Shown here in pieces: positions 1,595 through 64,000 of a DNA stretch of 64,000 nt. The position numbers and the translations under genes are program-made. Origin of the DNA: Eledone cirrhosa (Eukaryota); NCBI GenBank assembly GCA_964016885.1, contig OZ024741.1, forward strand, positions 90,644,001 to 90,708,000, given 5' to 3'. The notes under the pieces are model-generated. The model ran no database searches. It was not told where the DNA came from and was given only the letters and a program-made list of their open reading frames with translations. The first letter of the stretch is position 1; each line of letters begins with the position of its first letter.

Positions 1595-1627
1595 TCTCTT
1601 TTCCTCTTTTAACTTTTCAGCACCAAC

Positions 1628-3251: not shown

Positions 3252-3466
3252 GAATGCCATGGTTGACGGAGGCTCGGCTCTGTAAGGTATAGTAATTTTT
3301 AACCGTTAAAACAATTGTAAATTGTTTAAAACTTGAACCAAATTGTTGATAAAGACACCCTCCTCCTCGTGAGAGGGGTCTTTCTGTCCGTTATTTGGCC
3401 CTTCGGGGTTAAATAACCAGTTATTGGGGTTTTGTACCCAATATTCATTTTAAACAAAAAAACAAC

Positions 3467-5570: not shown

Positions 5571-5605
5571 GTGGTCTTTCCCATCTTTTCCACTCTATTT
5601 TAAAC

Positions 5606-11600: not shown

Positions 11601-11635
11601 GTGGTCTTTCCCATCTTTTCCACTCTATTTTAAAC

Positions 11636-14600
11636 ATGACCTCACTCAGAATAGGCAGCATAAATGCGCGTGGCTTGGGGTCGTCATGGAAGCAGGGTCA
11701 CCTGCTCAACGACCTCAGGTCACTAAACATAGATGTAGTGGCCATCAGCGAGACCAGAATCTCCGAAGCACGGGCCTTCGCACCGATCTTCGGCGGCTAC
11801 GATGTGTACGCATCTCCCAGCCGTCCTGGATCGGGTGGAGGAGTTGCTGTGCTTTTTCGGAGAGGTTTGGATCTCGCCATACGGGCCATCTTCCTGGACC
11901 CAGAGGGTAAGCTGGTGGTGCTGGACGTGACCAGCGGAGACGGGCAAGCTTTCAGGCTAGTGGCCGTCTATGCCCCGACAGGAGCAGGGCGGCCTGATTT
12001 CTTCCGGCGTCTGGAGACCTTTCTTGGAACGTCCCGCTCTTTAGTGTTAGTGGGCGACTGGAACGGGATCTTAGATGCACGCTGGGACTGTGTGGGATTA
12101 GCGGATAGGGGTGGAGGGTGCAAGAGCCTCACCAACCTGCTCAGGCGTTTTGAACTGTCTGACAGGTACCGATTGGATTTCCCGAATGTGCCAATGTGGA
12201 CTTGGACAAACCGCATAGGGTCATCCAGATCATATCTAGATAGAGTATTTTGTAGGGAAATAGATAGGTCTAGCATAGGCTGTCCACAATTCAAGATAGT
12301 CAGCTACACGGACCACAAATTCGTGACCTGTGTGCTTGACATAGATAGGCTTCATAGACGAGGACCCGGCTACTGGAAGCTAAACGCGTCCTTACCAGCG
12401 CGCAAGGCCTACAGAGACCGGATTAGCGAACTAGTTAAGCGGGCGTTGACGGGGGCCATCGTCAACAACAAGTGGTGGTTTGCTCTGAAAAGAGCGATTA
12501 AAATAGAATCGATTAGGTTTAGTAAGGCTTTAGCAATAGAGAAAAATAGAGCAGAGGGAGAACTAGTTAGAAAATTAGACGAGGCGCTTAGCAAAGGCAT
12601 TGCGACCGACGTGCTTGCGGCGAAATTGGCCCTTGACCAATTCTTCAATGCAAAGCACGAAGGCTGCGTTGTCAGAGCTAGGGTGCGTGCTCTCAGACAC
12701 GAGGGGACAAAAGCCGTTCAATGGGCCCGAGTGGCGGAGGCGCGTCGTGGCAACAAAGCCACGATCCGGTCTTTGGTGGACCACGACGGGCGCATGCTAC
12801 TCGATCCCGGGCAAATGTGTGAAGCTTTTCAGCGACACTTCGCTCAGCTGTTCGGGGGCAGCGGGGGGACGGGTAGAGGGATGGACTTTAGTGTCTACCT
12901 CGACGGACTGCCGCGGCTCTCGGCCACTGAGGCGAGGTGTTGCGAAAAGCCGATAACAGCCGCTGAAGTACGGGAGGCAATGACTGGCTGCACAAGGGGT
13001 AAATCGCCTGGTTTGGATGGTCTGCCCTATGAACTTTACGTACAGATGCCAGACTTGTTCGGAGGCCTCTTGGCGGACGTCTACTGCAACTGGCAACAGA
13101 ACGGGAGAATTCCCAGTTCTGTGAGCCGAGGAGCGGTGGCACTGCTGAGAAAGGATCCGAACAAGGGGGATAACATAGACAATTTCCGGCCCATAACTCT
13201 GCTAAACACAGAGTTTAAGATTTTGGCCAAGGTGCTAGCAAAGAGGTTGGCGCTTGTCGTTGGTGGTCTGGTGGGAGAGGCGCAGACATGCGCCATTCCC
13301 GACAGATCCATCCACGACAACCTCCACCTCATGCGATACATCGTAGAGAGGGTAGCTAGGGAACCTGGCACGGGTGGGTCCTTGATCAATTTAGATCAGT
13401 CGAAAGCTTTCGATAGGGTCGACCATCGTTACCTAGCGGCAGTCCTGAGGGCGGCTGGCTTTGGGCCCGTCTTCAGAGGCTGGATCGCTGCCATGCACAG
13501 CGACATCTGCTCTGTGGTGAGAGTGAACGGTCACCTGTCGGAACCGTTCAACATCATGCGCTCGGTCCGCCAAGGATGTCCCCTCTCGTCCCTCTTGTAC
13601 GTATTGACTCTCGAGCCATTACTGCACAAACTGGAGACGTTGAGGGGAGTCCCGCGCGAACTAGGATGCGGAAGATCCGTGTCAGCATATGCGGACGATG
13701 TCACCGTAGTGGTGTCGAACGCCAAACACATCGAGGCGATCGGCACTACACTAAGAGAATACGAAGCGGTGACAGAAGCAATGATCAACCAGGAAAAGTC
13801 AGTGGGCCTGCAGCTCGGCACCTGGAGAGGCAGGTCCATGCCGTCCAACAGCGTCGTCGGGCGCTGGACGGACGGACCGGTTAAATTGCTAGGGGTCTGG
13901 TTCGGTCCGGACCTCCAGACGGACAAAAACTGGGACGAGGTGACGAGCAGGGTGGCTTCTCTCACCCAGAAATGGGCGGAGAGGAAGCTATCCCTGAAAG
14001 GTCGAGCGGAGGTGGCTAACGCGTACATCGCGTCTGTCATCTGCTACCGCCTAACCGTCGTACCTTGTCCTAAGCCTCGCCTGACTGCACTGGAGCGTTT
14101 GCTCTTTCGCTTTTTGTGGAAGGGACGTGCTCCGATGGTCAGGCGGTCCATCTGTTGTCAACACCCGCTACGTGGAGGGCTGGGCATGCCGTGGCTGATG
14201 ATGCGCAGGCACGCGCTCAGGCTACGACATCTCCACCTCTTCCTCGACGGTGATCAGGTGTGGTCGCCGTTTGCTAGACGCGTTTTTCCCCAGCTCGTTT
14301 CCTTGGCGGAGCTGCAGTCCTGGGTCAAGCGAAGACCGAGAGGGAGCGCCTGGAGACTGGAATGTCTTCAGGCGCTCACAGCCCTCGACCAATCGGGCAA
14401 TGTGATCGGTGGAAACTCCACCTCGGCGTTCTATAGAGGATTAGTGGAGGGGAAGAGCGACGACGTACTTGGGGAAACTCTAGGCGTCGACGAAAATCAA
14501 CTAGCCAATCTCTTCGGAAGAACTTTCGGGCCAGGGCCTATGGACAACTTCCAGAAATCTCTGGCCTGGCAGTGCTACCGAGGAGCCTTGCCAGTTCGGG

Positions 14601-15055
14601 ATAAACTCTACAGGCATGGAGGTGCCGTCAGCCGGGCATGTCCGAGATGCGCGCAGGGCGACGAAACCGTCCTGCACGCACTCGTCCAGTGTCCGAAAAT
14701 TGCTGACTTGTGGGTTTATGTCGAACACCTGCTGTCGCGTTTAGGACGGATCCAGCTATCATCTGAGTCTATCGTGAGGATTGCCCCACCCTCCTCCTTT
14801 AGCCGGGAAGGGCAGGCAGTTTTTATCTGTCTGGTGGCCATGGCGAAAGAGATAGTATGGTGGACACGTTTGAAAGGGCTGAAGACGAGCACTTACCTCT
14901 TCGGTGATGCTCTGATTGACTTTTTCAAATCTCATTTGAAAAGGAAAATCAGAGTAGAGAAGGAAGTGCTCTCTTCCCAGCATTTTGTTGAAAGATGGGT
15001 GAGAGAAGCAAGAATGGCCCGAGTGAATGGGCCGACTCTGAGTATATATCTGTAA
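11636..15055 (+). CDS. ORF2 protein (1139 aa): AP endonuclease, reverse transcriptase, C-terminal zinc finger
   Basis: APE motifs SINARGL, ISET, VYAP, GDWN, LDRVF, TDH. RT motifs KSPGLDG, RPITLLN, DQSKAFD, QGCPLS, YADD, LLGV. C-terminal CPRC..ETVLHALVQC. The GPGYWKLN linker is typical of Tx1/L1. Confidence 0.97.
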   Translation: MTSLRIGSINARGLGSSWKQGHLLNDLRSLNIDVVAISETRISEARAFAPIFGGYDVYASPSRPGSGGGVAVLFRRGLDLAIRAIFLDPEGKLVVLDVTSGDGQAFRLVAVYAPTGAGRPDFFRRLETFLGTSRSLVLVGDWNGILDARWDCVGLADRGGGCKSLTNLLRRFELSDRYRLDFPNVPMWTWTNRIGSSRSYLDRVFCREIDRSSIGCPQFKIVSYTDHKFVTCVLDIDRLHRRGPGYWKLNASLPARKAYRDRISELVKRALTGAIVNNKWWFALKRAIKIESIRFSKALAIEKNRAEGELVRKLDEALSKGIATDVLAAKLALDQFFNAKHEGCVVRARVRALRHEGTKAVQWARVAEARRGNKATIRSLVDHDGRMLLDPGQMCEAFQRHFAQLFGGSGGTGRGMDFSVYLDGLPRLSATEARCCEKPITAAEVREAMTGCTRGKSPGLDGLPYELYVQMPDLFGGLLADVYCNWQQNGRIPSSVSRGAVALLRKDPNKGDNIDNFRPITLLNTEFKILAKVLAKRLALVVGGLVGEAQTCAIPDRSIHDNLHLMRYIVERVAREPGTGGSLINLDQSKAFDRVDHRYLAAVLRAAGFGPVFRGWIAAMHSDICSVVRVNGHLSEPFNIMRSVRQGCPLSSLLYVLTLEPLLHKLETLRGVPRELGCGRSVSAYADDVTVVVSNAKHIEAIGTTLREYEAVTEAMINQEKSVGLQLGTWRGRSMPSNSVVGRWTDGPVKLLGVWFGPDLQTDKNWDEVTSRVASLTQKWAERKLSLKGRAEVANAYIASVICYRLTVVPCPKPRLTALERLLFRFLWKGRAPMVRRSICCQHPLRGGLGMPWLMMRRHALRLRHLHLFLDGDQVWSPFARRVFPQLVSLAELQSWVKRRPRGSAWRLECLQALTALDQSGNVIGGNSTSAFYRGLVEGKSDDVLGETLGVDENQLANLFGRTFGPGPMDNFQKSLAWQCYRGALPVRDKLYRHGGAVSRACPRCAQGDETVLHALVQCPKIADLWVYVEHLLSRLGRIQLSSESIVRIAPPSSFSREGQAVFICLVAMAKEIVWWTRLKGLKTSTYLFGDALIDFFKSHLKRKIRVEKEVLSSQHFVERWVREARMARVNGPTLSIYL

Positions 15056-15315
15056 ACTAAAGGTGGAAAACTGGGAGAGGGCACTTGCCTTGGTGGTCAG
15101 GGTCATTGTGGCTTTTTACTGGGCTTTCTCCACAAATGTCCCTCCGAAGTCTCCCCCCTATTGGGGAATTTTTCATTGTTATTTTCATTGTTATTTTTGT
15201 TACATCCTCTGTTTTTGTTTTTTTACACGCAGAAATGCCCATTTGTACCGTCCTGCATTGTCCTGCACTGTCCTTAATGTCTACTTTATGTAAACCCTTG
15301 TGGTTAATAAAGAAA

Positions 15316-15347
<32 letters not shown>

Positions 15348-15562
15348 GAATGCCATGGTTGACGGAGGCTCGGCTCTGTAAGGTATAGTAATTTTTAACC
15401 GTTAAAACAATTGTAAATTGTTTAAAACTTGAACCAAATTGTTGATAAAGACACCCTCCTCCTCGTGAGAGGGGTCTTTCTGTCCGTTATTTGGCCCTTC
15501 GGGGTTAAATAATCAGTTATTGGGGTTTTGTACCCAAAATTTCATTTTAAACAAAAAACAAC

Positions 15563-17656
15563 ATGGCTACGAAAAAGAAATTTCATACGTCACTCCCACT
15601 CATTCCGTCTCCTTCTTCCTCAATCATCACTACAGCAGAGAGAAGATTGTCTCTCTCCCTCCCTTCTTTAAATGTGTCTCTCTCCCTCCCTTCTCTTTCG
15701 CAAGTGACGAAAGAAAAGAAAAGTCTCGTGCAAAGCGTGCAAGGTTTCTCCACGACGACGACGACAGCGACGAAACAGGTGTGCGGGAAATACGAAAACC
15801 CAGTTCATTCGTCTGACGTCAGGAATAATAGCAGTAGCAGCCGTAATAACAACAGCAACAGTGACAATGAAAACAACAGTAGCAGCCGCAACAGCATCAC
15901 CAGCAGCATAAACAACAACAGCATTAGCAGCAGCAACACCAACAACAACCACAGTAACAGCGGCGGAGGCAGTAGTCGTAGTACCTGCAGCAACAACAAA
16001 AGTACCAGCAGCTCTGACGACAACAACAACAGCAGAGAAAAACCAATCTCATTTGCAGGTATTGCGAAAAACTTGGAAACAATCCTCATAACAAATGAGG
16101 AATTAGAGGAAGCGAAGAAGATGGTGACAAAGAACCGACACCGAGCAATCTGCAAGGCAGCGAAAAATTTTTTCGAAACCCAAGAGCACTGTACGGTCAC
16201 GTACCGTACAGTAAGTACAAAATCCCGTAGGGTGGAAAGAGCCACAGAGGCCCAAATACAAAAAGCCTTGGGGTCTGTGTGGCAGCGGAAAACGCACATC
16301 ACCCGAGGCAAAAAATATGCCACCGTAGACGTACTTTTTGCCACACCCCAGGAGGCAAAGGCCCAATCAGTAGTGACCCTAAGGAGCGAGGAAATGGTGT
16401 TGGTGCCCTCCTACTGTGGGCAAAAAATTGTGAGGGTCAAACTGACCCACGTCCCCCCCGGAATGACCCCTTCTTGGCTGGCCGCGTCTGTCCTCGTCGG
16501 AATCGAGGACAAAACAACTGTACTGCAAGTACAGAAAAAAGTAAGAGAAGATTGGGTCGGCTCCTCCATTGAGATGCTAATCCAAACCAACCAGGAGTGC
16601 ATCGAAGCTATCCCGGATGTGATAGACTTCGATAACGGCACTCAACTGCCCATAAGTGTTGAGGGCAAACGCCCGAAATGCTTTCGCTGTGGATCGAAGA
16701 CTCACCTCAGGGCCTTCTGCAACGAGAAGACCCTGAGAAAGGAGAAAACCCCCCTCCTTCCGAATCCGGCTCCACGGCTACCAGCAACAGGACAAGCGGC
16801 AACCAGGAACGATAGGCCCGTGGCACCCATACCCACTCCACGGAAATCAAAAACAGCAGCAGCAGTGGAAATACTAACAACAACAACAGCAATACCAAAT
16901 GCAGCTGCAACAGAGACTCCAGTGCAAACATCACCAACAACAACAAGTGAAAGAGTGGAGTTGGTACCCCTCCCCGACCTCACAGAATCAGACATGGAGT
17001 GTGAGGTGGGAGAGAGATGGCAAAAGGTCGTAAGAAGGCACAAACGCAGAAGCAGCGCATCGTCGCCTTTGAAAAGGGAGGAAAGAAATGAGAAAAGGGT
17101 AAAGTCTACTGCAAAGAGACCCACAGCAGCAACAACACCAACACCATCACCACCCACAATAGCGCCACCATCACCACCGGCGACAACCCCACCGCCAACA
17201 ACACCTTCAACACCACCACAAGCACCAACATCGCAAACACAACAACAAAACACACACACCCAGCAACAACGACAAGAAAATAGCAGAACCACACCCCACC
17301 CCCAGAAAAACAAATGCACGGCAATAAATACACACAACAAGAAACTAATGACTTACATAATTGAACACACAGACATTTCACAACAGGACTACATAATACC
17401 AGCACCAATCAAAACGCCAACTAACATAAGACTGCTAAAAATAGCACAGAAACAATACACAAACATTAAAACGAAATTCCCCAACGCAGTTGGTGATTTC
17501 AGGGACCTAGGAGGAACCATCAATCGAAGAGTATACTCAGACATTCTCTTAGAAGAGCCGATGACCAGCCGAAGGGACGATTCAACGGTCCCTTCACCAG
17601 ACGATCAAGTGAAAAGGGATGTAAAAACCATCCCTCCTCTACCAAAAGTACGGTAA
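15563..17656 (+). CDS. ORF1 protein (697 aa, CCHC knuckle)
   Basis: Near-identical to 9507..11600. Confidence 0.9.
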   Translation: MATKKKFHTSLPLIPSPSSSIITTAERRLSLSLPSLNVSLSLPSLSQVTKEKKSLVQSVQGFSTTTTTATKQVCGKYENPVHSSDVRNNSSSSRNNNSNSDNENNSSSRNSITSSINNNSISSSNTNNNHSNSGGGSSRSTCSNNKSTSSSDDNNNSREKPISFAGIAKNLETILITNEELEEAKKMVTKNRHRAICKAAKNFFETQEHCTVTYRTVSTKSRRVERATEAQIQKALGSVWQRKTHITRGKKYATVDVLFATPQEAKAQSVVTLRSEEMVLVPSYCGQKIVRVKLTHVPPGMTPSWLAASVLVGIEDKTTVLQVQKKVREDWVGSSIEMLIQTNQECIEAIPDVIDFDNGTQLPISVEGKRPKCFRCGSKTHLRAFCNEKTLRKEKTPLLPNPAPRLPATGQAATRNDRPVAPIPTPRKSKTAAAVEILTTTTAIPNAAATETPVQTSPTTTSERVELVPLPDLTESDMECEVGERWQKVVRRHKRRSSASSPLKREERNEKRVKSTAKRPTAATTPTPSPPTIAPPSPPATTPPPTTPSTPPQAPTSQTQQQNTHTQQQRQENSRTTPHPQKNKCTAINTHNKKLMTYIIEHTDISQQDYIIPAPIKTPTNIRLLKIAQKQYTNIKTKFPNAVGDFRDLGGTINRRVYSDILLEEPMTSRRDDSTVPSPDDQVKRDVKTIPPLPKVR

Positions 17657-17691
17657 GTGGTCTTTCCCATCTTTTCCACTCTATTTTAAAC

Positions 17692-20600
17692 ATGACCTCA
17701 CTCAGAATAGGCAGCATAAATGCGCGTGGCTTGGGGTCGTCATGGAAGCAGGGTCACCTGCTCAACGACCTCAGGTCACTAAACATAGATGTAGTGGCCA
17801 TCAGCGAGACCAGAATCTCCGAAGCACGGGCCTTCGCACCGATCTTCGGCGGCTACGATGTGTACGCATCTCCCAGCCGTCCTGGATCGGGTGGAGGAGT
17901 TGCTGTGCTTTTTCGGAGAGGTTTGGATCTCGCCATACGGGCCATCTTCCTGGACCCAGAGGGTAAGCTGGTGGTGCTGGACGTGACCAGCGGAGACGGG
18001 CAAGCTTTCAGGCTAGTGGCCGTCTATGCCCCGACAGGAGCAGGGCGGCCTGATTTCTTCCGGCGTCTGGAGACCTTTCTTGGAACGTCCCGCTCTTTAG
18101 TGTTAGTGGGCGACTGGAACGGGATCTTAGATGCACGCTGGGACTGTGTGGGATTAGCGGATAGAGGTGGAGGGTGCAAGAGCCTCACCAACCTGCTCAG
18201 GCGTTTTGAACTGTCTGACAGGTACCGATTGGATTTCCCGAATGTGCCAATGTGGACTTGGACAAACCGCATAGGGTCATCCAGATCATATCTAGATAGA
18301 GTATTTTGTAGGGAAATAGATAGGTCTAGCATAGGCTGTCCACAATTCAAGATAGTCAGCTACACGGACCACAAATTCGTGACCTGTGTGCTTGACATAG
18401 ATAGGCTTCATAGACGAGGACCCGGCTACTGGAAGCTAAACGCGTCCTTACCAGCGCGCAAGGCCTACAGAGACCGGATTAGCGAACTAGTTAAGCGGGC
18501 GTTGACGGGGGCCATCGTCAACAACAAGTGGTGGTTTGCTCTGAAAAGAGCGATTAAAATAGAATCGATTAGGTTTAGTAAGGCTTTAGCAATAGAGAAA
18601 AATAGAGCAGAGGGAGAACTAGTTAGAAAATTAGACGAGGCGCTTAGCAAAGGCATTGCGACCGACGTGCTTGCGGCGAAATTGGCCCTTGACCAATTCT
18701 TCAATGCAAAGCACGAAGGCTGCGTTGTCAGAGCTAGGGTGCGTGCTCTCAGACACGAGGGGACAAAAGCCGTTCAATGGGCCCGAGTGGCGGAGGCGCG
18801 TCGTGGCAACAAAGCCACGATCCGGTCTTTGGTGGACCACGACGGGCGCATGCTACTCGATCCCGGGCAAATGTGTGAAGCTTTTCAGCGACACTTCGCT
18901 CAGCTGTTCGGGGGCAGCGGGGGGACGGGTAGAGGGATGGACTTTAGTGTCTACCTCGACGGACTGCCGCGGCTCTCGGCCACTGAGGCGAGGTGTTGCG
19001 AAAAGCCGATAACAGCCGCTGAAGTACGGGAGGCAATGACTGGCTGCACAAGGGGTAAATCGCCTGGTTTGGATGGTCTTCCCTATGAACTTTACGTACA
19101 GATGCCAGACTTGTTCGGAGGCCTCTTGGCGGACGTCTACTGCAACTGGCAACAGAACGGGAGAATTCCCAGTTCTGTGAGCCGAGGAGCGGTGGCACTG
19201 CTGAGAAAGGATCCGAACAAGGGGGATAACATAGACAATTTCCGGCCCATAACTCTGCTAAACACAGAGTTTAAGATTTTGGCCAAGGTGCTAGCAAAGA
19301 GGTTGGCGCTTGTCGTTGGTGGTCTGGTGGGAGAGGCGCAGACATGCGCCATTCCCGACAGATCCATCCACGACAACCTCCACCTCATGCGATACATCGT
19401 AGAGAGGGTAGCTAGGGAACCTGGCACGGGTGGGTCCTTGATCAATTTAGATCAGTCGAAAGCTTTCGATAGGGTCGACCATCGTTACCTAGCGGCAGTC
19501 CTGAGGGCGGCTGGCTTTGGGCCCGTCTTCAGAGGCTGGATCGCTGCCATGCACAGCGACATCTGCTCTGTGGTGAGAGTGAACGGTCACCTGTCGGAAC
19601 CGTTCAACATCATGCGCTCGGTCCGCCAAGGATGTCCCCTCTCGTCCCTCTTGTACGTATTGACTCTCGAGCCATTACTGCACAAACTGGAGACGTTGAG
19701 GGGAGTCCCGCGCGAACTAGGATGCGGAAGATCCGTGTCAGCATATGCGGACGATGTCACCGTAGTGGTGTCGAACGCCAAACACATCGAGGCGATCGGC
19801 ACTACACTAAGAGAATACGAAGCGGTGACAGGAGCAATGATCAACCAGGAAAAGTCAGTGGGCCTGCAGCTCGGCACCTGGAGAGGCAGGTCCATGCCGT
19901 CCAACAGCGTCGTCGGGCGCTGGACGGACGGACCGGTTAAATTGCTAGGGGTCTGGTTCGGTCCGGACCTCCAGACGGACAAAAACTGGGACGAGGTGAC
20001 GAGCAGGGTGGCTTCTCTCACCCAGAAATGGGCGGAGAGGAAGCTATCCCTGAAAGGTCGAGCGGAGGTGGCTAACGCGTACATCGCGTCTGTCATCTGC
20101 TACCGCCTAACCGTCGTACCTTGTCCTAAGCCTCGCCTGACTGCACTGGAGCGTTTGCTCTTTCGCTTTTTGTGGAAGGGACGTGCTCCGATGGTCAGGC
20201 GGTCCATCTGTTGTCAACACCCGCTACGTGGAGGGCTGGGCATGCCGTGGCTGATGATGCGCAGGCACGCGCTCAGGCTACGACATCTCCACCTCTTCCT
20301 CGACGGTGATCAGGTGTGGTCGCCGTTTGCTAGACGCGTTTTTCCCCAGCTCGTTTCCTTGGCGGAGCTGCAGTCCTGGGTCAAGCGAAGACCGAGAGGG
20401 AGCGCCTGGAGACTGGAATGTCTTCAGGCGCTCACAGCCCTCGACCAATCGGGCAATGTGATCGGTGGAAACTCCACCTCGGCGTTCTATAGAGGATTAG
20501 TGGAGGGGAAGAGCGACGACGTACTTGGGGAAACTCTAGGCGTCGACGAAAATCAACTAGCCAATCTCTTCGGAAGAACTTTCGGGCCAGGGCCTATGGA

Positions 20601-21111
20601 CAACTTCCAGAAATCTCTGGCCTGGCAGTGCTACCGAGGAGCCTTGCCAGTTCGGGATAAACTCTACAGGCATGGAGGTGCCGTCAGCCGGGCATGTCCG
20701 AGATGCGCGCAGGGCGACGAAACCGTCCTGCACGCACTCGTCCAGTGTCCGAAAATTGCTGACTTGTGGGTTTATGTCGAACACCTGCTGTCGCGTTTAG
20801 GACGGATCCAGCTATCATCTGAGTCTATCGTGAGGATTGCCCCACCCTCCTCCTTTAGCCGGGAAGGGCAGGCAGTTTTTATCTGTCTGGTGGCCATGGC
20901 GAAAGAGATAGTATGGTGGACACGTTTGAAAGGGCTGAAGACGAGCACTTACCTCTTCGGTGATGCTCTGATTGACTTTTTCAAATCTCATTTGAAAAGG
21001 AAAATCAGAGTAGAGAAGGAAGTGCTCTCTTCCCAGCATTTTGTTGAAAGATGGGTGAGAGAAGCAAGAATGGCCCGAGTGAATGGGCCGACTCTGAGTA
21101 TATATCTGTAA
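17692..21111 (+). CDS. ORF2 protein (1139 aa, APE-RT-zf)
   Basis: All catalytic motifs intact (TDH, YADD). Confidence 0.97.
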   Translation: MTSLRIGSINARGLGSSWKQGHLLNDLRSLNIDVVAISETRISEARAFAPIFGGYDVYASPSRPGSGGGVAVLFRRGLDLAIRAIFLDPEGKLVVLDVTSGDGQAFRLVAVYAPTGAGRPDFFRRLETFLGTSRSLVLVGDWNGILDARWDCVGLADRGGGCKSLTNLLRRFELSDRYRLDFPNVPMWTWTNRIGSSRSYLDRVFCREIDRSSIGCPQFKIVSYTDHKFVTCVLDIDRLHRRGPGYWKLNASLPARKAYRDRISELVKRALTGAIVNNKWWFALKRAIKIESIRFSKALAIEKNRAEGELVRKLDEALSKGIATDVLAAKLALDQFFNAKHEGCVVRARVRALRHEGTKAVQWARVAEARRGNKATIRSLVDHDGRMLLDPGQMCEAFQRHFAQLFGGSGGTGRGMDFSVYLDGLPRLSATEARCCEKPITAAEVREAMTGCTRGKSPGLDGLPYELYVQMPDLFGGLLADVYCNWQQNGRIPSSVSRGAVALLRKDPNKGDNIDNFRPITLLNTEFKILAKVLAKRLALVVGGLVGEAQTCAIPDRSIHDNLHLMRYIVERVAREPGTGGSLINLDQSKAFDRVDHRYLAAVLRAAGFGPVFRGWIAAMHSDICSVVRVNGHLSEPFNIMRSVRQGCPLSSLLYVLTLEPLLHKLETLRGVPRELGCGRSVSAYADDVTVVVSNAKHIEAIGTTLREYEAVTGAMINQEKSVGLQLGTWRGRSMPSNSVVGRWTDGPVKLLGVWFGPDLQTDKNWDEVTSRVASLTQKWAERKLSLKGRAEVANAYIASVICYRLTVVPCPKPRLTALERLLFRFLWKGRAPMVRRSICCQHPLRGGLGMPWLMMRRHALRLRHLHLFLDGDQVWSPFARRVFPQLVSLAELQSWVKRRPRGSAWRLECLQALTALDQSGNVIGGNSTSAFYRGLVEGKSDDVLGETLGVDENQLANLFGRTFGPGPMDNFQKSLAWQCYRGALPVRDKLYRHGGAVSRACPRCAQGDETVLHALVQCPKIADLWVYVEHLLSRLGRIQLSSESIVRIAPPSSFSREGQAVFICLVAMAKEIVWWTRLKGLKTSTYLFGDALIDFFKSHLKRKIRVEKEVLSSQHFVERWVREARMARVNGPTLSIYL

Positions 21112-21371
21112 ACTAAAGGTGGAAAACTGGGAGAGGGCACTTGCCTTGGTGGTCAGGGTCATTGTGGCTTTTTACTGGGCTTTCTCCACAAATGTCCCTC
21201 CGAAGTCTCCCCCCTATTGGGGAATTTTTCATTGTTATTTTCATTGTTATTTTTGTTACATCCTCTGTTTTTGTTTTTTTACACGCAGAAATGCCCATTT
21301 GTACCGTCCTGCATTGTCCTGCACTGTCCTTAATGTCTACTTTATGTAAACCCTTGTGGTTAATAAAGAAA

Positions 21372-21403
<32 letters not shown>

Positions 21404-21618
21404 GAATGCCATGGTTGACGGAGGCTCGGCTCTGTAAGGTATAGTAATTTTTAACCGTTAAAACAATTGTAAATTGTTTAAAACTTGAACCAAATTGTTG
21501 ATAAAGACACCCTCCTCCTCGTGAGAGGGGTCTTTCTGTCCGTTATTTGGCCCTTCGGGGTTAAATAATCAGTTATTGGGGTTTTGTACCCAAAATTTCA
21601 TTTTAAACAAAAAACAAC

Positions 21619-23715
21619 ATGGCTACGAAAAAGAAATTTCATACGTCACTCCCACTCATTCCGTCTCCTTCTTCCTCAATCATCACTACAGCAGAGAGAA
21701 GATTGTCTCTCTCCCTCCCTTCTTTAAATGTGTCTCTCTCCCTCCCTTCTCTTTCGCAAGTGACGAAAGAAAAGAAAAGTCTCGTGCAAAGCGTGCAAGG
21801 TTTCTCCACGACGACGACGACAGCGACGAAACAGGTGTGCGGGAAATACGAAAACCCAGTTCATTCGTCTGACGTCAGGAATAATAGCAGTAGCAGCCGT
21901 AATAACAACAGCAACAGTGACAATGAAAACAACAGTAGCAGCCGCAACAGCATCACCAGCAGCATAAACAACAACAGCATTAGCAGCAGCAACACCAACA
22001 ACAACCACAGTAACAGCGGCGGAGGCAGTAGTCGTAGTACCTGCAGCAACAACAAAAGTACCAGCAGCTCTGACGACAACAACAACAGCAGAGAAAAACC
22101 AATCTCATTTGCAGGTATTGCGAAAAACTTGGAAACAATCCTCATAACAAATGAGGAATTAGAGGAAGCGAAGAAGATGGTGACAAAGAACCGACACCGA
22201 GCAATCTGCAAGGCAGCGAAAAATTTTTTCGAAACCCAAGAGCACTGTACGGTCACGTACCGTACAGTAAGTACAAAATCCCGTAGGGTGGAAAGAGCCA
22301 CAGAGGCCCAAATACAAAAAGCCTTGGGGTCTGTGTGGCAGCGGAAAACGCACATCACCCGAGGCAAAAAATATGCCACCGTAGACGTACTTTTTGCCAC
22401 ACCCCAGGAGGCAAAGGCCCAATCAGTAGTGACCCTAAGGAGCGAGGAAATGGTGTTGGTGCCCTCCTACTGTGGGCAAAAAATTGTGAGGGTCAAACTG
22501 ACCCACGTCCCCCCCGGAATGACCCCTTCTTGGCTGGCCGCGTCTGTCCTCGTCGGAATCGAGGACAAAACAACTGTACTGCAAGTACAGAAAAAAGTAA
22601 GAGAAGATTGGGTCGGCTCCTCCATTGAGATGCTAATCCAAACCAACCAGGAGTGCATCGAAGCTATCCCGGATGTGATAGACTTCGATAACGGCACTCA
22701 ACTGCCCATAAGTGTTGAGGGCAAACGCCCGAAGTGCTTTCGCTGTGGATCGAAGACTCACCTCAGGGCCTTCTGCAACGAGAAGACCCTGAGAAAGGAG
22801 AAAACCCCCCTCCTTCCGAATCCGGCTCCACGGCTACCAGCAACAGGACAAGCGGCAACCAGGAACGATAGGCCCGTGGCACCCATACCCACTCCACGGA
22901 AATCAAAAACAGCAGCAGCAGTGGAAATACTAACAACAACAACAGCAATACCAAATGCAGCTGCAACAGAGACTCCAGTGCAAACATCACCAACAACAAC
23001 AAGTGAAAGAGTGGAGTTGGTACCCCTCCCCGACCTCACAGAATCAGACATGGAGTGTGAGGTGGGAGAGGGATGGCAAAAGGTCGTAAGAAGGCACAAA
23101 CGCAGAAGCAGCGCATCGTCGCCTTTGAAAAGGGAGGAAAGAAATGAGAAAAGGGTAAAGTCTACTGCAAAGAGACCCACAGCAGCAACAACACCAACAC
23201 CATCGCCACCCACACTAGCGCCACCATCACCACCGGCGACAACCCCACCGCCAACAACACCTTCAACACCACCACCACAAGCACCAACATCGCAAACACA
23301 ACAACAAAACACACACACCCAGCAACAACGACAAGAAAATAGCAGAACCACACCCCACCCCCAGAAAAACAAATGCACGGCAATAAATACACACAACAAG
23401 AAACTAATGACTTACATAATTGAACACACAGACATTTCACAACAGGACTACATAATACCAGCACCAATCAAAACGCCAACTAACATAAAACTGCTAAAAA
23501 TAGCACAGAAACAATACACAAATATTAAAACGAAATTCCCCAACGCAGTTGGTGATTTCAGGGACCTAGGAGGAACCATCAATCGAAGAGTATACTCAGA
23601 CATTCTCTTAGAAGAGCCGACGACCAGCCGAAGGGACGATTCAACGGTCCCTTCACCAGACGATCAAGTGAAAAGGGATGTAAAAACCATCCCTCCTCTA
23701 CCAAAAGTACGGTAA
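21619..23715 (+). CDS. ORF1 protein (698 aa, CCHC knuckle)
   Basis: Open ORF, one extra Pro codon as in unit 1. Confidence 0.9.
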   Translation: MATKKKFHTSLPLIPSPSSSIITTAERRLSLSLPSLNVSLSLPSLSQVTKEKKSLVQSVQGFSTTTTTATKQVCGKYENPVHSSDVRNNSSSSRNNNSNSDNENNSSSRNSITSSINNNSISSSNTNNNHSNSGGGSSRSTCSNNKSTSSSDDNNNSREKPISFAGIAKNLETILITNEELEEAKKMVTKNRHRAICKAAKNFFETQEHCTVTYRTVSTKSRRVERATEAQIQKALGSVWQRKTHITRGKKYATVDVLFATPQEAKAQSVVTLRSEEMVLVPSYCGQKIVRVKLTHVPPGMTPSWLAASVLVGIEDKTTVLQVQKKVREDWVGSSIEMLIQTNQECIEAIPDVIDFDNGTQLPISVEGKRPKCFRCGSKTHLRAFCNEKTLRKEKTPLLPNPAPRLPATGQAATRNDRPVAPIPTPRKSKTAAAVEILTTTTAIPNAAATETPVQTSPTTTSERVELVPLPDLTESDMECEVGEGWQKVVRRHKRRSSASSPLKREERNEKRVKSTAKRPTAATTPTPSPPTLAPPSPPATTPPPTTPSTPPPQAPTSQTQQQNTHTQQQRQENSRTTPHPQKNKCTAINTHNKKLMTYIIEHTDISQQDYIIPAPIKTPTNIKLLKIAQKQYTNIKTKFPNAVGDFRDLGGTINRRVYSDILLEEPTTSRRDDSTVPSPDDQVKRDVKTIPPLPKVR

Positions 23716-23750
23716 GTGGTCTTTCCCATCTTTTCCACTCTATTTTAAAC

Positions 23751-26700
23751 ATGACCTCACTCAGAATAGGCAGCATAAATGCGCGTGGCTTGGGGTCGTC
23801 ATGGAAGCAGGGTCACCTGCTCAACGACCTCAGGTCACTAAACATAGATGTAGTGGCCATCAGCGAGACCAGAATCTCCGAAGCACGGGCCTTCGCACCG
23901 ATCTTCGGCGGCTACGATGTGTACGCATCTCCCAGCCGTCCTAGATCCGGTGGAGGAGTTGCTGTACTTTTTCGGAGAGGTTTGGATCTCGCCATACGGG
24001 CCATCTTCCTGGACCCAGAGGGTAAGCTGGTGGTGCTGGACGTGACCAGCGGAGACGGGCAAGCTTTCAGGCTAGTGGCCGTCTATGCCCCGACAGGAGC
24101 AGGGAGGCCTGATTTCTTCCGGCGTCTGGAGACCTTTCTTGGAACGTCGCGCTCTTTAGTGTTAGTGGGCGACTGGAACGGGATCTTAGATGCACGCTGG
24201 GACTGTGTGGGATTAGCGGATAGGGGTGGAGGGTGCAAGAGCCTCACCAACCTGCTCAGGCGTTTTGAACTGTCTGACAGGTACCGATTGGATTTCCCGA
24301 ATGTGCCAATGTGGACTTGGACAAATCGCATAGGGTCATCCAGATCATATCTAGATAGAGTATTTTGTAGGGAAATAGATAGGTCTAGCATAGGCTGTCC
24401 ACAATTCAAGATAGTCAGCTACACGGACAACAAATTCGTGATCTGTGTGCTTGACTTAGATAGGCTTCATAGACGAGGACCCGGCTACTGGAAGCTAAAC
24501 GCGTCCTTACCAGCGCGCAAGGCCTACAGAGACCGGATTAGCGAACTAGTTAAGCGGGCGTTGACGGGGGCCATCGTCAACAACAAGTGGTGGTTTGCTC
24601 TGAAAAGAGCGATTAGAATAGAATCGATTAGATTTAGTAAGGCTTTAGCAATAGAGAAAAATAGAGCAGAGGGAGAACTAGTTAGAAAATTAGACGAGGC
24701 GCTTAGCAAAGGCATTGCGACCGACGTGCTTGCGGCGAAATTGGCCCTTGACCAATTCTTCAATGCAAAGCACGAAGGCTGCGTTGTCAGAGCAAGGGTG
24801 CGTGCTCTCAGACACGAGGGGACGAAAGCCGTTCAATGGGCCCGAGTGGCGGAAGCGCGTCGTGGCAACAAAGCCACGATCCGGTCTTTGGTGGACCACG
24901 ACGGGCGCATGCTACTCGATCCCGGGCAAATGTGTGAAGCTTTTCAGCGACACTTCGCTCAGCTGTTCGGGGGCAGCGGGGGGCCGGGTAGAGGCATGGA
25001 CTTTAGTGTCTACCTCGACGGACTGCCGCGGCTCTCGGCCACTGAGGCGAAGTGTTGCGAAAAGCCGATAACAGCCGCTGAAGTACGGGAGGCAATGACT
25101 GGCTGCACAAGGGGTAAATCGCCTGGTTTGGATGGTCTGCCCTATGAACTTTACGTACAGATGCCAGACTTGTTCGGAGGCCTCTTGGCGGACGTCTACT
25201 GCAACTGGCAACAGAACGGGAGAATTCCCAGTTCTGTGAGCCGAGGAGCGGTGGCACTGCTGAGAAAGGATCCGAACAAGGGGGATAACATAGACAATTT
25301 CCGGCCCATAACTCTGCTAAACACAGAGTTTAAGATTTTGGCCAAGGTGCTAGCAAAGAGGTTGGCGCTTGTCGTTGGTGGTCTGGTGGGGGAGGCGCAG
25401 ACATGCGCCATTCCCGACAGATCCATCCACGACAACCTCCACCTCATGCGATACATCGTAGAGAGGGTAGCTAGGGAACCTGGCACGGGTGGGTCCTTGA
25501 TCAATTTAGATCAGTCGAAAGCTTTCGATAGGGTCGACCATCGTTACCTAGCGGCAGTCCTGAGGGCGGCTGGCTTTGGGCCCGTCTTCAGAGGCTGGAT
25601 CGCTGCCATGCACAGCGACATCTGCTCTGTAGTGAGAGTGAACGGTCACCTGTCGGAACCGTTCAACATCATGCGCTCGGTCCGCCAAGGATGTCCCCTC
25701 TCGTCCCTCTTGTACGTATTGACTCTCGAGCCATTACTGCACAAACTGGAGACGTTGAGGGGAGTCCCGCGCGAACTAGGATGCGGAAGATCCGTGTCAG
25801 CATATGCGGACGATGTCACCGTAGTGGTGTCGAACGCCAAACACATCGAGGCGATCGGCACTACACTAAGAGAATACGAAGCGGTGACAGGAGCAATGAT
25901 CAACCAGGAAAAGTCAGTGGGCCTGCAGCTCGGCACCTGGAGAGGCAGGTCCATGCCGTCCAACAGCGTCGTCGGACGCTGGACGGACGGACCGGTTAAA
26001 TTGCTAGGGGTCTGGTTCGGTCCGGACCTCCAGACGGACAAAAACTGGGACGAGGTGACGAGCAGGGTGGCTTCTCTCACCCAGAAATGGGCGGAGAGGA
26101 AGCTATCCCTGAAAGGTCGAGCGGAGGTGGCTAACGCGTACATCGCGTCTGTCATCTGCTACCGCCTAACCGTCGTACCTTGTCCTAAGCCTCGCCTGAC
26201 TGCGCTGGAGCGTTTGCTCTTTCGCTTTTTGTGGAAGGGACGTGCTCCGATGGTCAGGCGGTCCATCTGTTGTCAACACCCGCTACGTGGAGGGCTGGGC
26301 ATGCCGTGGCTGATGATGCGCAGGCACGCGCTCAGGCTACGACATCTCCACCTCTTCCTCGACGGTGATCAGGTGTGGTCGCCGTTTGCTAGACGCGTTT
26401 TTCCCCAGCTCGTTTCCTTGACGGAGCTGCAGTCCTGGGTCAAGCGAAGACCGAGAGGGAGCGCCTGGAGACTGGAATGTCTTCAGGCGCTCACAGCCCT
26501 CGACCAATCGGGCAATGTGATCGGTGGAAACTCCACCTCGGCGTTCTATAGAGGATTAGTGGAGGGGAAGAGCGACGACGTACTTGGGGAAACTCTAGGC
26601 GTCGACGAAAATCAACTAGCCAATCTCTTCGGAAGAACTTTCGGGCCAGGGCCTATGGACAACTTCCAGAAATCTCTGGCCTGGCAGTGCTACCGAGGAG

Positions 26701-27137
26701 CCTTGCCAGTTCGGGATAAACTCTACAGGCATGGAGGTGCCGTCAGCCGGGCATGTCCGAGATGCGCGCAGGGCGACGAAACCGTCCTGCACGCACTCGT
26801 CCAGTGTCCGAAAATTGCTGACTTGTGGGTTTATGTCGAACACCTGCTGTCGCGTTTAGGACGGATCCAGCTATCATCTGAGTCTATCGTGAGGATTGCC
26901 CCGCCCTCCTCCTTTAGCCGGGAAGGGCAGGCAGTTTTTATCTGTCTGGTGGCCATGGCGAAAGAGATAGTATGGTGGACACGTTTGAAAGGGCTGAAGA
27001 CGAGCACTTACCTCTTCGGTGATGCTCTGATTGCCTTTTTCAAATTTCATTTGAAAAGGAAAATCAGAGTAGAGAAGGAAGTGCTCTCTTCCCAGCATTT
27101 TGTTGAAAGATGGGTGAGAGAAGCAAGAATGGCCTGA
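23751..27137 (+). CDS. ORF2 protein (1128 aa), probably endonuclease-dead
   Basis: TDH->TDN at 24429-24431; CGA->TGA at 27135 removes the last 11 aa. Confidence 0.85.
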   Translation: MTSLRIGSINARGLGSSWKQGHLLNDLRSLNIDVVAISETRISEARAFAPIFGGYDVYASPSRPRSGGGVAVLFRRGLDLAIRAIFLDPEGKLVVLDVTSGDGQAFRLVAVYAPTGAGRPDFFRRLETFLGTSRSLVLVGDWNGILDARWDCVGLADRGGGCKSLTNLLRRFELSDRYRLDFPNVPMWTWTNRIGSSRSYLDRVFCREIDRSSIGCPQFKIVSYTDNKFVICVLDLDRLHRRGPGYWKLNASLPARKAYRDRISELVKRALTGAIVNNKWWFALKRAIRIESIRFSKALAIEKNRAEGELVRKLDEALSKGIATDVLAAKLALDQFFNAKHEGCVVRARVRALRHEGTKAVQWARVAEARRGNKATIRSLVDHDGRMLLDPGQMCEAFQRHFAQLFGGSGGPGRGMDFSVYLDGLPRLSATEAKCCEKPITAAEVREAMTGCTRGKSPGLDGLPYELYVQMPDLFGGLLADVYCNWQQNGRIPSSVSRGAVALLRKDPNKGDNIDNFRPITLLNTEFKILAKVLAKRLALVVGGLVGEAQTCAIPDRSIHDNLHLMRYIVERVAREPGTGGSLINLDQSKAFDRVDHRYLAAVLRAAGFGPVFRGWIAAMHSDICSVVRVNGHLSEPFNIMRSVRQGCPLSSLLYVLTLEPLLHKLETLRGVPRELGCGRSVSAYADDVTVVVSNAKHIEAIGTTLREYEAVTGAMINQEKSVGLQLGTWRGRSMPSNSVVGRWTDGPVKLLGVWFGPDLQTDKNWDEVTSRVASLTQKWAERKLSLKGRAEVANAYIASVICYRLTVVPCPKPRLTALERLLFRFLWKGRAPMVRRSICCQHPLRGGLGMPWLMMRRHALRLRHLHLFLDGDQVWSPFARRVFPQLVSLTELQSWVKRRPRGSAWRLECLQALTALDQSGNVIGGNSTSAFYRGLVEGKSDDVLGETLGVDENQLANLFGRTFGPGPMDNFQKSLAWQCYRGALPVRDKLYRHGGAVSRACPRCAQGDETVLHALVQCPKIADLWVYVEHLLSRLGRIQLSSESIVRIAPPSSFSREGQAVFICLVAMAKEIVWWTRLKGLKTSTYLFGDALIAFFKFHLKRKIRVEKEVLSSQHFVERWVREARMA

Positions 27138-27431
27138 GTGAATGGGCCGACTCTGAGTATATATCTGTAAACTAAAGGTGGAAAACTGGGAGAGGGCACT
27201 TGCCTTGGTGATCAGGGTCATTGTGGCTTTTTACTGGGCTTTCTCCACAAATGTCCCTCCGAAGTCTCCCCCCTATTGGGGAATTTTTCATTGTTATTTT
27301 CATTGTTATTTTTGTTACATCCTCTGTTTTTGTTTTTTTTACACGCAGAAATGCCCATTTGTACCGTCCTGCATTGTCCTGCACTGTCCTTAATGTCTAC
27401 TTTATGTAAACCCTTGTGGTTAATAAAGAAA

Positions 27432-27475
<44 letters not shown>

Positions 27476-30113: not shown

Positions 30114-30300
30114 AATTGTTTCTACTTTTGGCACAAGGCCAGCATATCCCAGTGCATTACTGGTACTTTATTTTATCGACCCCGTAAGGATGAAAGGCAA
30201 AGTTAACCTCAGCGGGATTTGAACTCAGACCATAAAGGGCCGTAACTCTTTGCTGCAAAGCATGGCGTCCGACTCTCTACCGATACTGCCAATCCACCGC
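30114..30300 (-). mobile_element. tRNA-derived SINE (family S1)
   Basis: Reverse strand has an A box (TGGCAGTATCGG), a B box (GAGTTCAAATCC), a core and a tail ...GGCCTTGTGCCAAAAGTAGAAACAATTATT. Near-identical copies at 38604, 56672 and 63820. Confidence 0.85.
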
Positions 30301-38550: not shown

Positions 38551-38603
38551 CTTAAGGGCTCGTATTATTATTTTTTTTGTCTTTTTGTCTTTTTTTGTCT
38601 CAA

Positions 38604-38797
38604 GGGCGGTGGATTGGCAGTATCGGTAGAGAGTCGGACACCATGCTTTGAAGCATAGAGTTACGTCCCTTTATGATCTGAGTTCAAATGCCGCCGAGGT
38701 TAACTTTGCCTTTCATCCTTACGGGGTCGATAAAATAAAGTACCAGTAATGTACTGGGTAATTGCTGGCCTTGTGCCTAAAATAGAAACAATTATTA
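38604..38797 (+). mobile_element. tRNA-derived SINE (family S1) with 23-bp TSD
   Basis: A/B boxes; ATTATTATTTTTTTTGTCTTTTT at 38564-38586 and 38791-38813. Confidence 0.9.
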
Positions 38798-39740
38798 TTT
38801 TTTTTGTCTTTTTCTTTCGTCTCCTCTGTGAAGGTATGGCTCAGCAGATCCATGTGTGGCCTAATGAACGTATAGGCGTGATTAAATTTGTACGTTTTTT
38901 GCTTAATCTGTGCCAATGTTCTCAAAAAGCCACAGCTTTTATGGATCTCCTTGATTAGCTTGTTTGACGGTGAACCACCGGCCAAGCTCCAAAATCACTG
39001 AAAATAATGAAAGAAAAAATAAAATAGAAATAAAACATTATTTACTTAAAGAAAAATCATCACAATGTATCGAACTTGGAGTAAATTAAATTATGAAAAT
39101 ATTACTTACTTGATGTTGATTCAAAATAATTACCATGAGGGGAAGATATATTTCAGAAATGTATCATATGAATAAAATACAGAAAAATACAGGCCGTACT
39201 TTCAAAATTCAGATCTTACATTAATGTGTATACTTTTACTTTACAATGCCGTGAAACTGGTTTTGAAACAAGGAGATAAGAGTTTTAAAGATTTTCGCAA
39301 GCGTAGAAAATAGCGACCACCGGTGACCAGCTTATTGTATATATATATATATATATAATAGAAGCTTTCACCGTATTTTTTGACTAAAGAAATTTTAGCC
39401 TGATAGTGGGGTTTAGAATACTCAGAGAAATGCAAAAAGATGAGTATTGACGTACATGGGAGTCGAACCCACATTATTTCTCTGAGGAACTGGAATTCCA
39501 GTCCCTCGGAGAAATAACAACACAACCAGGAGCTGGACATATCGATGTATTGACGGAGTAAAACACACTTCAACAACATGTGTACCTGTCTCTCCCACAC
39601 CAATTCGGATATATATATATATATATATATAATATATATATATATTATATATATAGTAATAATAATAAATTTGAAGACTAAAATCCAAAGAGGGCTCGAT
39701 AAGGATAAATATATATCAAATATATAAGAACCGTAGAGCA

Positions 39741-56671: not shown

Positions 56672-56854
56672 AATTGTTTCTACTTTTGGCACAAGGCCAG
56701 CAATTAATCAGTGCATTACTAGTACTTTATTTTATCGACCCCGTAAGGATGAAAGGCAAAGTTAACCTCGGCGGGATTTGAACTCAGATCATAAAGGGCC
56801 GTAACTCTATGCTGCAAAGCATGGCGTCAGACCTTCTACCGATACTGCCAATCC
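56672..56854 (-). mobile_element. tRNA-derived SINE (family S1)
   Basis: Near-identical to 30114-30300. Confidence 0.85.
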
Positions 56855-56867
56855 CCAGTATAATAAT

Positions 56868-56950
56868 TGATTTTACTTTTGGCACAAGGCCAGCAATTCC
56901 TCAGTATATTACTGGTACTTTATTTTATCGACCCCCATAAGGATGAAAGG
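56868..56950 (-). mobile_element. 5'-truncated S1 SINE with 13-bp TSD
   Basis: CCAGTATAATAAT at 56855-56867 and 56960-56972. Confidence 0.8.
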
Positions 56951-63814: not shown

Positions 63815-64000
63815 ATAATAATTGTTTCTACTTTAGGCACAAGGCCAGCAATTACCCAGTGCATTACTGGTACTTTATTTTATCGACCCCGTAAGGATGA
63901 AAGGCAAAGTCAACCTCGGCGGGATTTGAACTCAGATCGTAAAGGGACGTAACTATGCTGGAAAGCATGGTGTCCGACTCTCTACCGATACTGCCAATCC
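63815..64000 (-). mobile_element. S1 SINE (5' end at window edge)
   Basis: Near-identical to 30114-30300 and 56672-56854. Confidence 0.85.

What the first reader, a model, noticed from the sequence alone, without database searches (positions are those of the whole stretch)
38564..38813. S1 SINE shares the Tx1 3' end and its TSD starts with ATTATTA: candidate LINE-SINE partnership
Seen: Tx1 end CCTTGTGgtTAAtAaAGAAAtcATTATTATT aligns without gaps to SINE end CCTTGTGccTAAaAtAGAAAcaATTATTATT. This SINE is flanked by a 23-bp duplication ATTATTATTTTTTTTGTCTTTTT (38564-38586 / 38791-38813) that begins with the ATT repeat at the tail junction. Established: stringent SINE-LINE pairs share 3' tails, best known for CR1/L2/RTE, whereas mammalian L1 partners use poly(A). 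Inference: an abundant tRNA-SINE mobilised by a Tx1-clade enzyme through a specific 3' tail, and an independent read-out of its ATT target preference.
Basis: partly seen in the sequence, partly recalled or inferred. Interest (0 to 1): 0.75.

Follow-up and report, generated by a model that had tools for sequence, protein, structure and literature searches.

The report
SINE riding an ATT-seeking Tx1 LINE
A very abundant short repeat in this probably octopod genome ends like one group of self-copying Tx1-type jumping genes and lands at the same ATT sites, so those genes likely copy it, possibly by recognising a small predicted RNA hairpin; I did not find such a tail-sharing animal Tx1 pair in the papers searched.

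Summary
The 23-bp duplication is exact but ends 15 nt before the SINE head. The SINE (at least 141,428 copies) shares 16 of 22 terminal bases with the window's LINE; the family majority shares only 14-15. The ATT 'tail' is mostly target DNA (inside the duplication in 32 of 37 copies), so it is no evidence of tail homology. Duplications average 17 bp and start pyrimidine^ATTA (31 of 31). All ten Tx1-type tails beat shuffles for at least two of three SINE queries; CR1-A, RTE and Dong-like tails do not. Stems around a five-base loop change in compensating pairs. A sister Tx1 lineage has another loop and another target, and the SINE follows the ATT lineage in both. Against: the window's family is not the best match; the hairpin is not predicted in full-length RNA of the dominant SINE subfamily; full-length LINEs sit in long ATT tracts, SINEs in short motifs. 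Verdict: likely mobilised by the ATT-targeting Tx1 lineage (0.75); recognition through the hairpin is less sure (about 0.5). The scan found this pairing before elsewhere in this genome.

The parts
38602..38790 (+). SINE, short subfamily (189 nt): tRNA-like head, body, LINE-like tail
38615..38626 (+). Pol III A-box-like motif (consensus recalled)
   Evidence: sequence; ARAGORN and Rfam found no tRNA
38680..38692 (+). Pol III B-box-like motif (consensus recalled); this copy has a substitution at 38690 that most copies lack
38766..38778 (+). Predicted terminal hairpin: loop 38770-38774, three G-C pairs; the fourth pair is open in this copy
38564..38586 (+). 5' copy of the target site duplication, starting in ATT phase
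38587..38601 (+). Extra 5'-junction bases, mostly a partial re-copy of the duplication
38791..38813 (+). 3' copy of the duplication; holds the whole apparent ATT tail and a run of eight T (possible Pol III terminator, inferred)
3252..27433 (+). Four head-to-tail full-length Tx1-like LINE units of family A (3252-9269, 9294-15317, 15348-21373, 21404-27433) joined by (ATT)n
15551..17656 (+). ORF1 of the unit at 15348, with a C-x2-C-x4-H-x4-C knuckle; no Pfam family passes
17497..21111 (+). ORF2: APE endonuclease, reverse transcriptase, zf-RVT; closest solved structure is human L1 ORF2
21349..21361 (+). LINE terminal hairpin (loop 21353-21357), followed by a poly(A)-signal-like hexamer and (ATT)n
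236..3224 (+). Diverged, internally deleted Tx1-like element that heads the array and ends in the same tail
30117..30300 (-). Second SINE copy
56675..56950 (-). 5'-truncated SINE followed by a near-full SINE in tandem
63823..64000 (-). Fourth SINE locus, cut by the window end

Best explanation
This tRNA-headed SINE carries a 3' end related to the 3' UTR of a Tx1-like LINE lineage and is likely copied in trans by the ORF2 protein of that lineage's ATT-targeting branch. Shown: related tail, shared loop and spacing, 12-23 bp duplications that start pyrimidine^ATTA. Inferred steps: Pol III transcribes the SINE; ORF2 binds the small terminal hairpin (about 0.5); its endonuclease nicks the bottom strand at a T/purine step just 3' of an AAT-phase run; the short AUU end of the RNA pairs with the primer; the second nick falls about 17 nt away. 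Which family did the copying probably changed with time: older families for most copies, and perhaps the young family in this window for the youngest.
For: Tail: 3'-anchored scores of 13-30 for ten Tx1-type tails against 1-14 for five other LINE tails; CR1-A, RTE and Dong-like tails do not beat shuffles. Structure: the loop-closing pair is the same in all main families and the SINE; pair 2 is C-G in LINEs and G-C in the SINE; pair 3 is G-C or A-T; pair 4 is T-A, G-C or A-T across lineages. Pairing probability is 0.7-1.0 in most LINE tails. Natural control: sister lineage F (3,791 hits) mostly has one loop change and ends in TATC-type repeats; only 10 SINE ends are followed by that target, against 141,428 exact tails. 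Footprint: duplications in 37 of 83 unselected copies against 3.2 in permuted pairs, median 17 bp; 31 of 37 start with at least 4 nt of ATT phase; base -1 is C or T in 31 of 31 against 59% at random ATTA sites. Of 30 full-length family-A LINEs, 30 follow an ATT tract. Of 31 truncated ATT-lineage copies, 10 have duplications of at least 10 nt and 8 have ATT at the 5' junction; only 1 of 61 CR1 copies has ATT there. Both elements have young copies and both are abundant in a run from another organism label and study (X6).
Against: The shared stretch is short (22-38 nt in most alignments) and A-rich; part of it is the LINE's poly(A)-signal-like hexamer, which the SINE lacks. No LINE carries the SINE's exact stem: 27 of 27 hits were SINEs. 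Some of the best tail scores come from lineage F, which has the wrong target. In full-length RNA of the dominant short subfamily the hairpin probability is 0.01-0.02 (0.28 in the long subfamily); it is the best fold or within 0.3 kcal/mol only in a 66-nt context. Pair 4 is broken in family C and in half of the SINE copies. SINE sites have 4-10 nt of ATT phase (0 of 31 reach 15), while full-length LINE tracts are 15-83 nt. SINE-like duplications reaching into unique DNA are rare in truncated LINEs: 3 of 31, and 3 of 69 in a cruder pass against 5 of 61 for CR1. One CR1-B tail scored weakly above shuffles (5 of 150). The LINE survey is incomplete.
Confidence: 0.75

Rival explanations
1. The SINE is copied by an L1/Tx1-type LINE family that I did not sample, one that targets short ATT motifs; the sampled families are only its relatives.
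For: Tract-length mismatch between SINE and LINE sites. No exact stem donor. The survey rests on 400 kb of evenly spaced windows, 30 loci from the top RT hits and pattern searches.
Against: The 30 loci read from the top 40 hits of a search with a 42%-identical outside ORF2 were all family A. Single divergent copies in my loci carry the same hairpin.
Confidence: 0.12
2. The dominant CR1 family, which also ends in (ATT)n, copies the SINE through RNA-target pairing of the ATT repeat; the Tx1-like tail is a relic or a coincidence.
For: CR1-A is abundant (6,958 exact ends), young and ATT-tailed. CORE-type SINEs often pair with CR1 or L2 (PMC4824008 passages).
Against: Its tail scores 1-6, at or below shuffles. 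Its 5' junctions lack ATT (1 of 61). Long duplications occur in 5 of 61 copies, four of them in tandem or microsatellite flanks.
Confidence: 0.06
3. The likeness is chance or convergence on a short A-rich end beside a shared microsatellite.
For: Short match; the ATT part is target DNA; short-subfamily consensus against family A has z of only 1.8.
Against: All ten Tx1-type tails beat shuffles for at least two of the three SINE queries (at most 8 of 150 shuffles as good). Loop identity and target both side with one branch.
Confidence: 0.07

Closest known systems
SINEU / Tx1-Mar of crocodilians (Kojima 2015, PMC4494074; passages and sections 15 and 16 read)
   Same: A SINE inferred to be mobilised by Tx1-clade LINEs from shared target preference.
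   Different: SINEU has snRNA heads and poly(A) tails, and the sections read argue from target and 5' ends, not from a shared 3' tail. Here the head is tRNA-like, there is no poly(A), and a 3' hairpin region is shared.
Stringent L1-clade pairs: maize LINE1-1_ZM with ZmSINE2/3, Chlamydomonas L1-1_CR with SINEX-3_CR (Ohshima 2012, PMC3472496; text part 1 of 3 and Table S1 part 1 of 2 read)
   Same: L1-clade LINE with a conserved 3' hairpin, a conserved loop, variable compensating stems, and a SINE sharing it.
   Different: Plants and algae only; about 50 nt shared. The pair table as read lists three L1-tailed SINEs, none animal and none Tx1.
Stringent L2 pairs, eel UnaL2/UnaSINE and zebrafish ZfL2-1/2 (Hayashi 2014, PMC4176376; passages read)
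   Same: Model for the mechanism: stem recognised generally, loop specifically; swapping the stem is tolerated, swapping the loop is not.
   Different: L2 clade, tested by assay; here nothing is assayed and the stem is only 3-4 bp.
Microsatellite-targeting Tx1 families Kibi (TC), Koshi (TTC) and crocodilian TTCC/TTTC families (PMC4494074 section 15; PMC3812793 passages)
   Same: APE-type Tx1 LINEs that insert in simple repeats.
   Different: Targets here are (ATT)n and TATC-type repeats; no partner SINE is mentioned in the passages read.
Octopus tRNA-SINEs OK, OR1, OR2 (Ohshima and Okada 1994; not seen; cited in PMC4824008 and PMC4758252 passages; the name OK is recalled)
   Same: Abundant octopus tRNA-derived SINEs, one classed as CORE; this family may well be one of them.
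   Different: I could not obtain their sequences, so identity is untested; no partner LINE is named in the passages read.

Membership tests
L1/Tx1 group of LINEs | ORF2 with APE endonuclease, RT and C-terminal zinc motif, closest to L1 | tested here: met
   PF03372, PF00078, PF13966; human L1 ORF2 E 8e-53 against R2 1e-21
Tx1 clade proper | RT phylogeny groups it with named Tx1 elements | not testable with these tools
   No named Tx1 among 56 homologues; the Atlas gave no answer; tree holds unnamed outgroups only
Tx1 clade proper | Target-sequence preference | tested here: met
   30 of 30 full-length copies follow an ATT tract of 15 nt or more; the sister lineage ends in TATC-type repeats
Tx1 clade proper | ORF1 with a zinc knuckle, unlike mammalian L1 ORF1 (feature recalled) | tested here: met
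   CCHC motif visible in the translation; no Pfam family passes
tRNA-derived SINE | Short, non-coding, interspersed, with target site duplications | tested here: met
   189 or 218 nt; 141,428 exact tails; duplications in 37 of 83
tRNA-derived SINE | tRNA-derived head with A and B boxes | tested here: inconclusive
   Box-like motifs and complementary ends by eye; ARAGORN 0 genes and no tRNA family in Rfam
Stringent SINE-LINE pair | SINE 3' end homologous to the LINE 3' end | tested here: met
   short (22-38 nt in most alignments) and lineage-wide rather than family-specific
Stringent SINE-LINE pair | Shared 3' stem-loop with compensating changes | tested here: inconclusive
   Compensating pairs across families; predicted in most LINE tails but not in full-length short-subfamily SINE RNA; no formal pair count was run
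Stringent SINE-LINE pair | Same insertion footprint | tested here: inconclusive
   Same motif and strand, overlapping duplication lengths; tract length differs
Stringent SINE-LINE pair | The tail is required for trans-mobilisation | not testable with these tools
   needs a cell assay
CORE-SINE or MetaSINE superfamily | Conserved central domain | tested here: inconclusive
   No clear likeness by eye to the BivaMeta alignment excerpt; no CORE or OR1/OR2 sequence was available; the likeness to CORE is recalled only

The most novel reading that the evidence does not exclude
An animal Tx1 lineage uses stringent, hairpin-based RNA recognition, and one of the dominant octopod SINEs is its parasite. 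Sister lineages differ in both loop and target repeat, so loop identity would decide which enzyme copies an RNA and where it lands: a loop-to-target code testable with one base change.
Probability: 0.4. Interest if true: 0.72.

Novelty: new variant of a known kind. Interest (0 to 1): 0.52.

Why it matters
It would name the engine behind a large SINE expansion in octopods (SINEs are 11.6% of the O. vulgaris genome in PMC13282606). It would also add an animal case to the three plant and algal L1-clade pairs that support stringent recognition as ancestral (PMC3472496). Two sister lineages in one genome with different loops and targets give a ready-made swap experiment, and the SINE insertions define the short target motif that LINE copies buried in microsatellites hide.

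Tried and rejected
An exact SINE-type stem in a LINE: none, 27 of 27 hits were SINEs. Lineage F as the mobiliser: rejected by target, 10 of more than 141,000 ends; two of the ten show 16-17 bp duplications, but the count is near my rough chance estimate. The Dong-like element: rejected by opposite strand polarity and no tail match. RTE and CR1-B: different terminal repeats. The first passes at LINE duplications had unreliable 5' boundaries; one search is the cleaner pass, and five of its 31 'truncated' copies are 5' subfamily swaps. The LINE part had a pattern slip and was rerun. Outgroup Tx1 tails: the metagenome scan found no relative. No RNA holder was listed. Runs X10, X15 and X20 gave too little cover to use. 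Tail conservation among SINE copies and the 60 of 69 ORF2-anchored ends with the motif are partly circular, because most loci were chosen by tail patterns, so I give them little weight. The careful tree did not finish; the quick tree is used. A formal count of stem covariation with controls was not run, so covariation rests on family labels only.

Full report
Setting. The window is G000:C2:90644001-90708000 in a 3.0-Gb genome. It is probably an octopod: one weak homologue carries an Octopus name, and the LINE clades I met (CR1, RTE, Dong-like, L1/Tx1) match those listed as recently active in O. vulgaris (PMC13282606 passages). My clade labels for CR1, RTE and Dong come from recalled features, not from a reference comparison.

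Observation. The SINE spans 38602-38790, with three more loci in the window. The duplication at 38564-38586 / 38791-38813 is exact; 15 extra bases, mostly a partial re-copy of it, separate it from the head. The last 22 bases match the LINE end at 16 positions without gaps. The degenerate pattern hits 9 places in the window (0.07 expected) and 47,655 in the genome (control 0).

The LINE. Four full-length 6.0-kb units lie head to tail, joined by (ATT)n, behind a diverged and deleted fifth. ORF2 has endonuclease, RT and zf-RVT domains and is closest to human L1 ORF2 among solved structures. ORF1 has a CCHC knuckle. There are 1,603 exact matches to its 5' end, and 30 of 30 examined follow a perfect ATT tract of 15-83 nt. 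No named Tx1 reference was reachable, so 'Tx1' rests on target specificity and ORF1 type.

The SINE. Exact tails number 141,428. There is a long subfamily (218 nt) and a commoner short one (189 nt) that lacks part of the body-tail junction (54 and 198 tails, 28 unassigned). A-box-like and B-box-like motifs are visible, but ARAGORN and Rfam found no tRNA.

Test 1, a better tail elsewhere. I gathered 3' ends from the top RT hits (30 loci read, all one CR1 family), from 40 evenly spaced 10-kb windows and from pattern searches. CR1-A also ends in (ATT)n (6,958 exact ends), so an ATT tail is not diagnostic. In 3'-anchored alignments without the microsatellite, ten Tx1-type tails scored 13-30 and five other tails 1-14. 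CR1-A, RTE and Dong-like tails did not beat local shuffles; CR1-B was weakly above them (5 of 150) for two queries. Family A of the window is among the weakest against the short consensus (13; 8 of 150 shuffles as good). Families C and G and lineage F score 21-27 against it, and family D scores 27-28 against the long consensus over 37 nt. Each family was represented by one copy, and two of these carried a mutation that my search had selected. No LINE has the SINE's exact stem (27 of 27 hits are SINEs). The survey is not exhaustive.

Hairpin. The mismatches next to the shared heptamer are the arms of a 4-bp stem around a five-base loop (38770-38774; 21353-21357). On a quick ORF2 tree (34 rows: 31 thinned from 67 copies plus three outgroups; SH-aLRT 80 for lineage F, 90 for the ATT lineage) pair 1 is constant in all main families. 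Pair 3 goes from G-C to A-T in family A. Pair 4 is T-A in F, G-C in D, open in C and A-T in A. The SINE inverts pair 2 and has T-A or an open pair 4 (121 and 124 of 252 copies). Pairing probability is 0.7-1.0 in most LINE tails but 0-0.2 in three 80-nt contexts. In full-length RNA it is 0.01-0.02 for the short subfamily and 0.28 for the long one. In a 66-nt context the hairpin fold is the best fold or within 0.3 kcal/mol of it. The hairpin is therefore plausible but not established for the dominant subfamily, and no formal covariation count was run.

Natural control. Lineage F (3,791 hits) has the homologous hairpin, mostly with one loop change (9 of the first 100 listed keep the SINE-type loop), and ends in TATC-type repeats. 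The SINE's flanks resemble F at least as well as A, but its loop and its target follow the ATT branch: 10 SINE ends genome-wide are followed by the F target. This fits a tail taken from an ancestor of these families and kept in use by the ATT branch (inference).

Test 2, the target. Among 83 full-length SINEs not chosen by an ATT pattern, 37 have an exact duplication reaching at least 6 nt into unique DNA (permuted pairs: mean 3.2, maximum 8). Lengths are 6-23 bp, median 17. Of these, 31 start with at least 4 nt of ATT phase; in the overlapping set it was 30 of 36 against 0.25 expected. Base -1 is a pyrimidine in 31 of 31 (59% at random ATTA sites), and phase runs of 7 nt or more are enriched (12 of 31 against 5.6%). 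The implied bottom-strand nick is at a T/purine step, as for L1-type endonucleases (recalled).

Footprint of the candidates. CR1-A 5' junctions lack ATT (1 of 61) and long duplications are rare (5 of 61, four in repetitive flanks). Of 176 ATT-lineage ends, 31 were classed as truncated (74 internal deletions, 66 running off the locus, 5 reaching the reference start). Ten of the 31 have duplications of 10-25 nt with one mismatch allowed, mostly pure ATT; three reach into unique DNA; eight have ATT at the 5' junction. One 32-nt family-D fragment has an exact 13-bp SINE-like duplication (L213). Motif, strand and length agree with the SINE; tract length does not (0 of 31 SINE sites reach 15 nt). 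A shorter AUU end on the SINE RNA could explain this, but it is untested.

Timing. Nearest-neighbour identity is at least 98% for 39 of 41 family-A copies, 0 of 8 C, 4 of 14 D and 24 of 75 short SINEs; median SINE divergence from consensus is 5.8%. The SINE figure is biased upward, because 30 loci were the closest relatives of the focal copy. Most SINE copies thus look older than family A, while the youngest overlap it. Both elements are abundant in run X6, from another organism label and study.

Known work. Tx1-driven SINEs are known: SINEU, argued from target preference, with poly(A) tails (PMC4494074). Stringent L1-clade pairs with hairpins are known in maize and Chlamydomonas (PMC3472496). 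Loop-specific binding is shown for L2 (PMC4176376). Bivalve SINE surveys name other partners; 'Tx1' does not occur in the main text of PMC11481361. Seven searches showed no animal tRNA-SINE sharing a Tx1 3' end. I saw only passages of PMC3747384, PMC4758252, PMC4824008, PMC5786205, PMC3531059, PMC8967140 and PMC3812793, plus the supplement parts named. Repbase, Dfam, subscription papers (Ohshima and Okada 1994 and 2005; Kojima and Fujiwara 2004) and preprint supplements were not visible and could hold this pairing. Eight earlier notes of this scan describe the same pairing elsewhere in this genome; they are not independent support. One of them says the duplications are the same for LINE and SINE, which my data support only in part.

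Verdict. Real, and a new variant of a known kind. The partnership with the ATT-targeting Tx1-like lineage is likely (0.75). Recognition through the hairpin is about even. The specific role of the window's family is probably limited to the youngest SINE copies.

Noticed in passing
L348-L377, L059, L099, L236: A sister Tx1-like lineage (3,791 pattern hits; ORF2 about 60-70% identical to the window's) with a homologous hairpin, mostly one loop change, and TATC/CTAT-type terminal repeats.
   Followed up: partly
PMC5786205 supplement part 4: Squid Sepioth-SINE1 and 2A, whose 3' part is labelled of unknown origin, hold a perfect 4-bp stem around the same five-base loop, but about 35-40 nt from their end rather than 16.
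   Followed up: partly
L413, L319, L323, L336, L347: Family-A-like LINEs that match the window unit only over the last 3.73-3.75 kb and share a different upstream sequence: an apparent 5'/ORF1 replacement.
   Followed up: no
window 236-3224: The array's first element has a different ORF1, a 78%-identical ORF2 piece and an internal deletion joining it to a 95%-identical 3' end.
   Followed up: partly
L121; 3' flanks of L298-L316: An R4/Dong-like element (label from recalled features) ends in (AAT)n and often sits in the same tracts on the opposite strand; the 5' end of what may be another LINE family also recurs right after family-A tails.
   Followed up: partly
L091 (G000:C1:20000001-20010000): A multi-kilobase tandem repeat whose unit translates like a stretch at the C-terminus of the CR1-A ORF: a satellite probably born from a LINE.
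   Followed up: no
window 44050-45196 (+): Broken hAT-like transposase pieces (DUF4371 below cut-off; hAT label by recall).
   Followed up: no
window 28122-29422: Overlapping ORFs without a Pfam hit, with an exact 99-bp internal duplication (28616-28714 / 28766-28864) and a 78% copy at 55988-56415.
   Followed up: no
window 36010-37655 (-): Degraded CR1-like fragments.
   Followed up: no
L005, L011, L014, L027 and the focal copy: SINE 5' junctions often carry partial re-copies of the duplicated target, suggesting repeated re-priming at second-strand synthesis.
   Followed up: no
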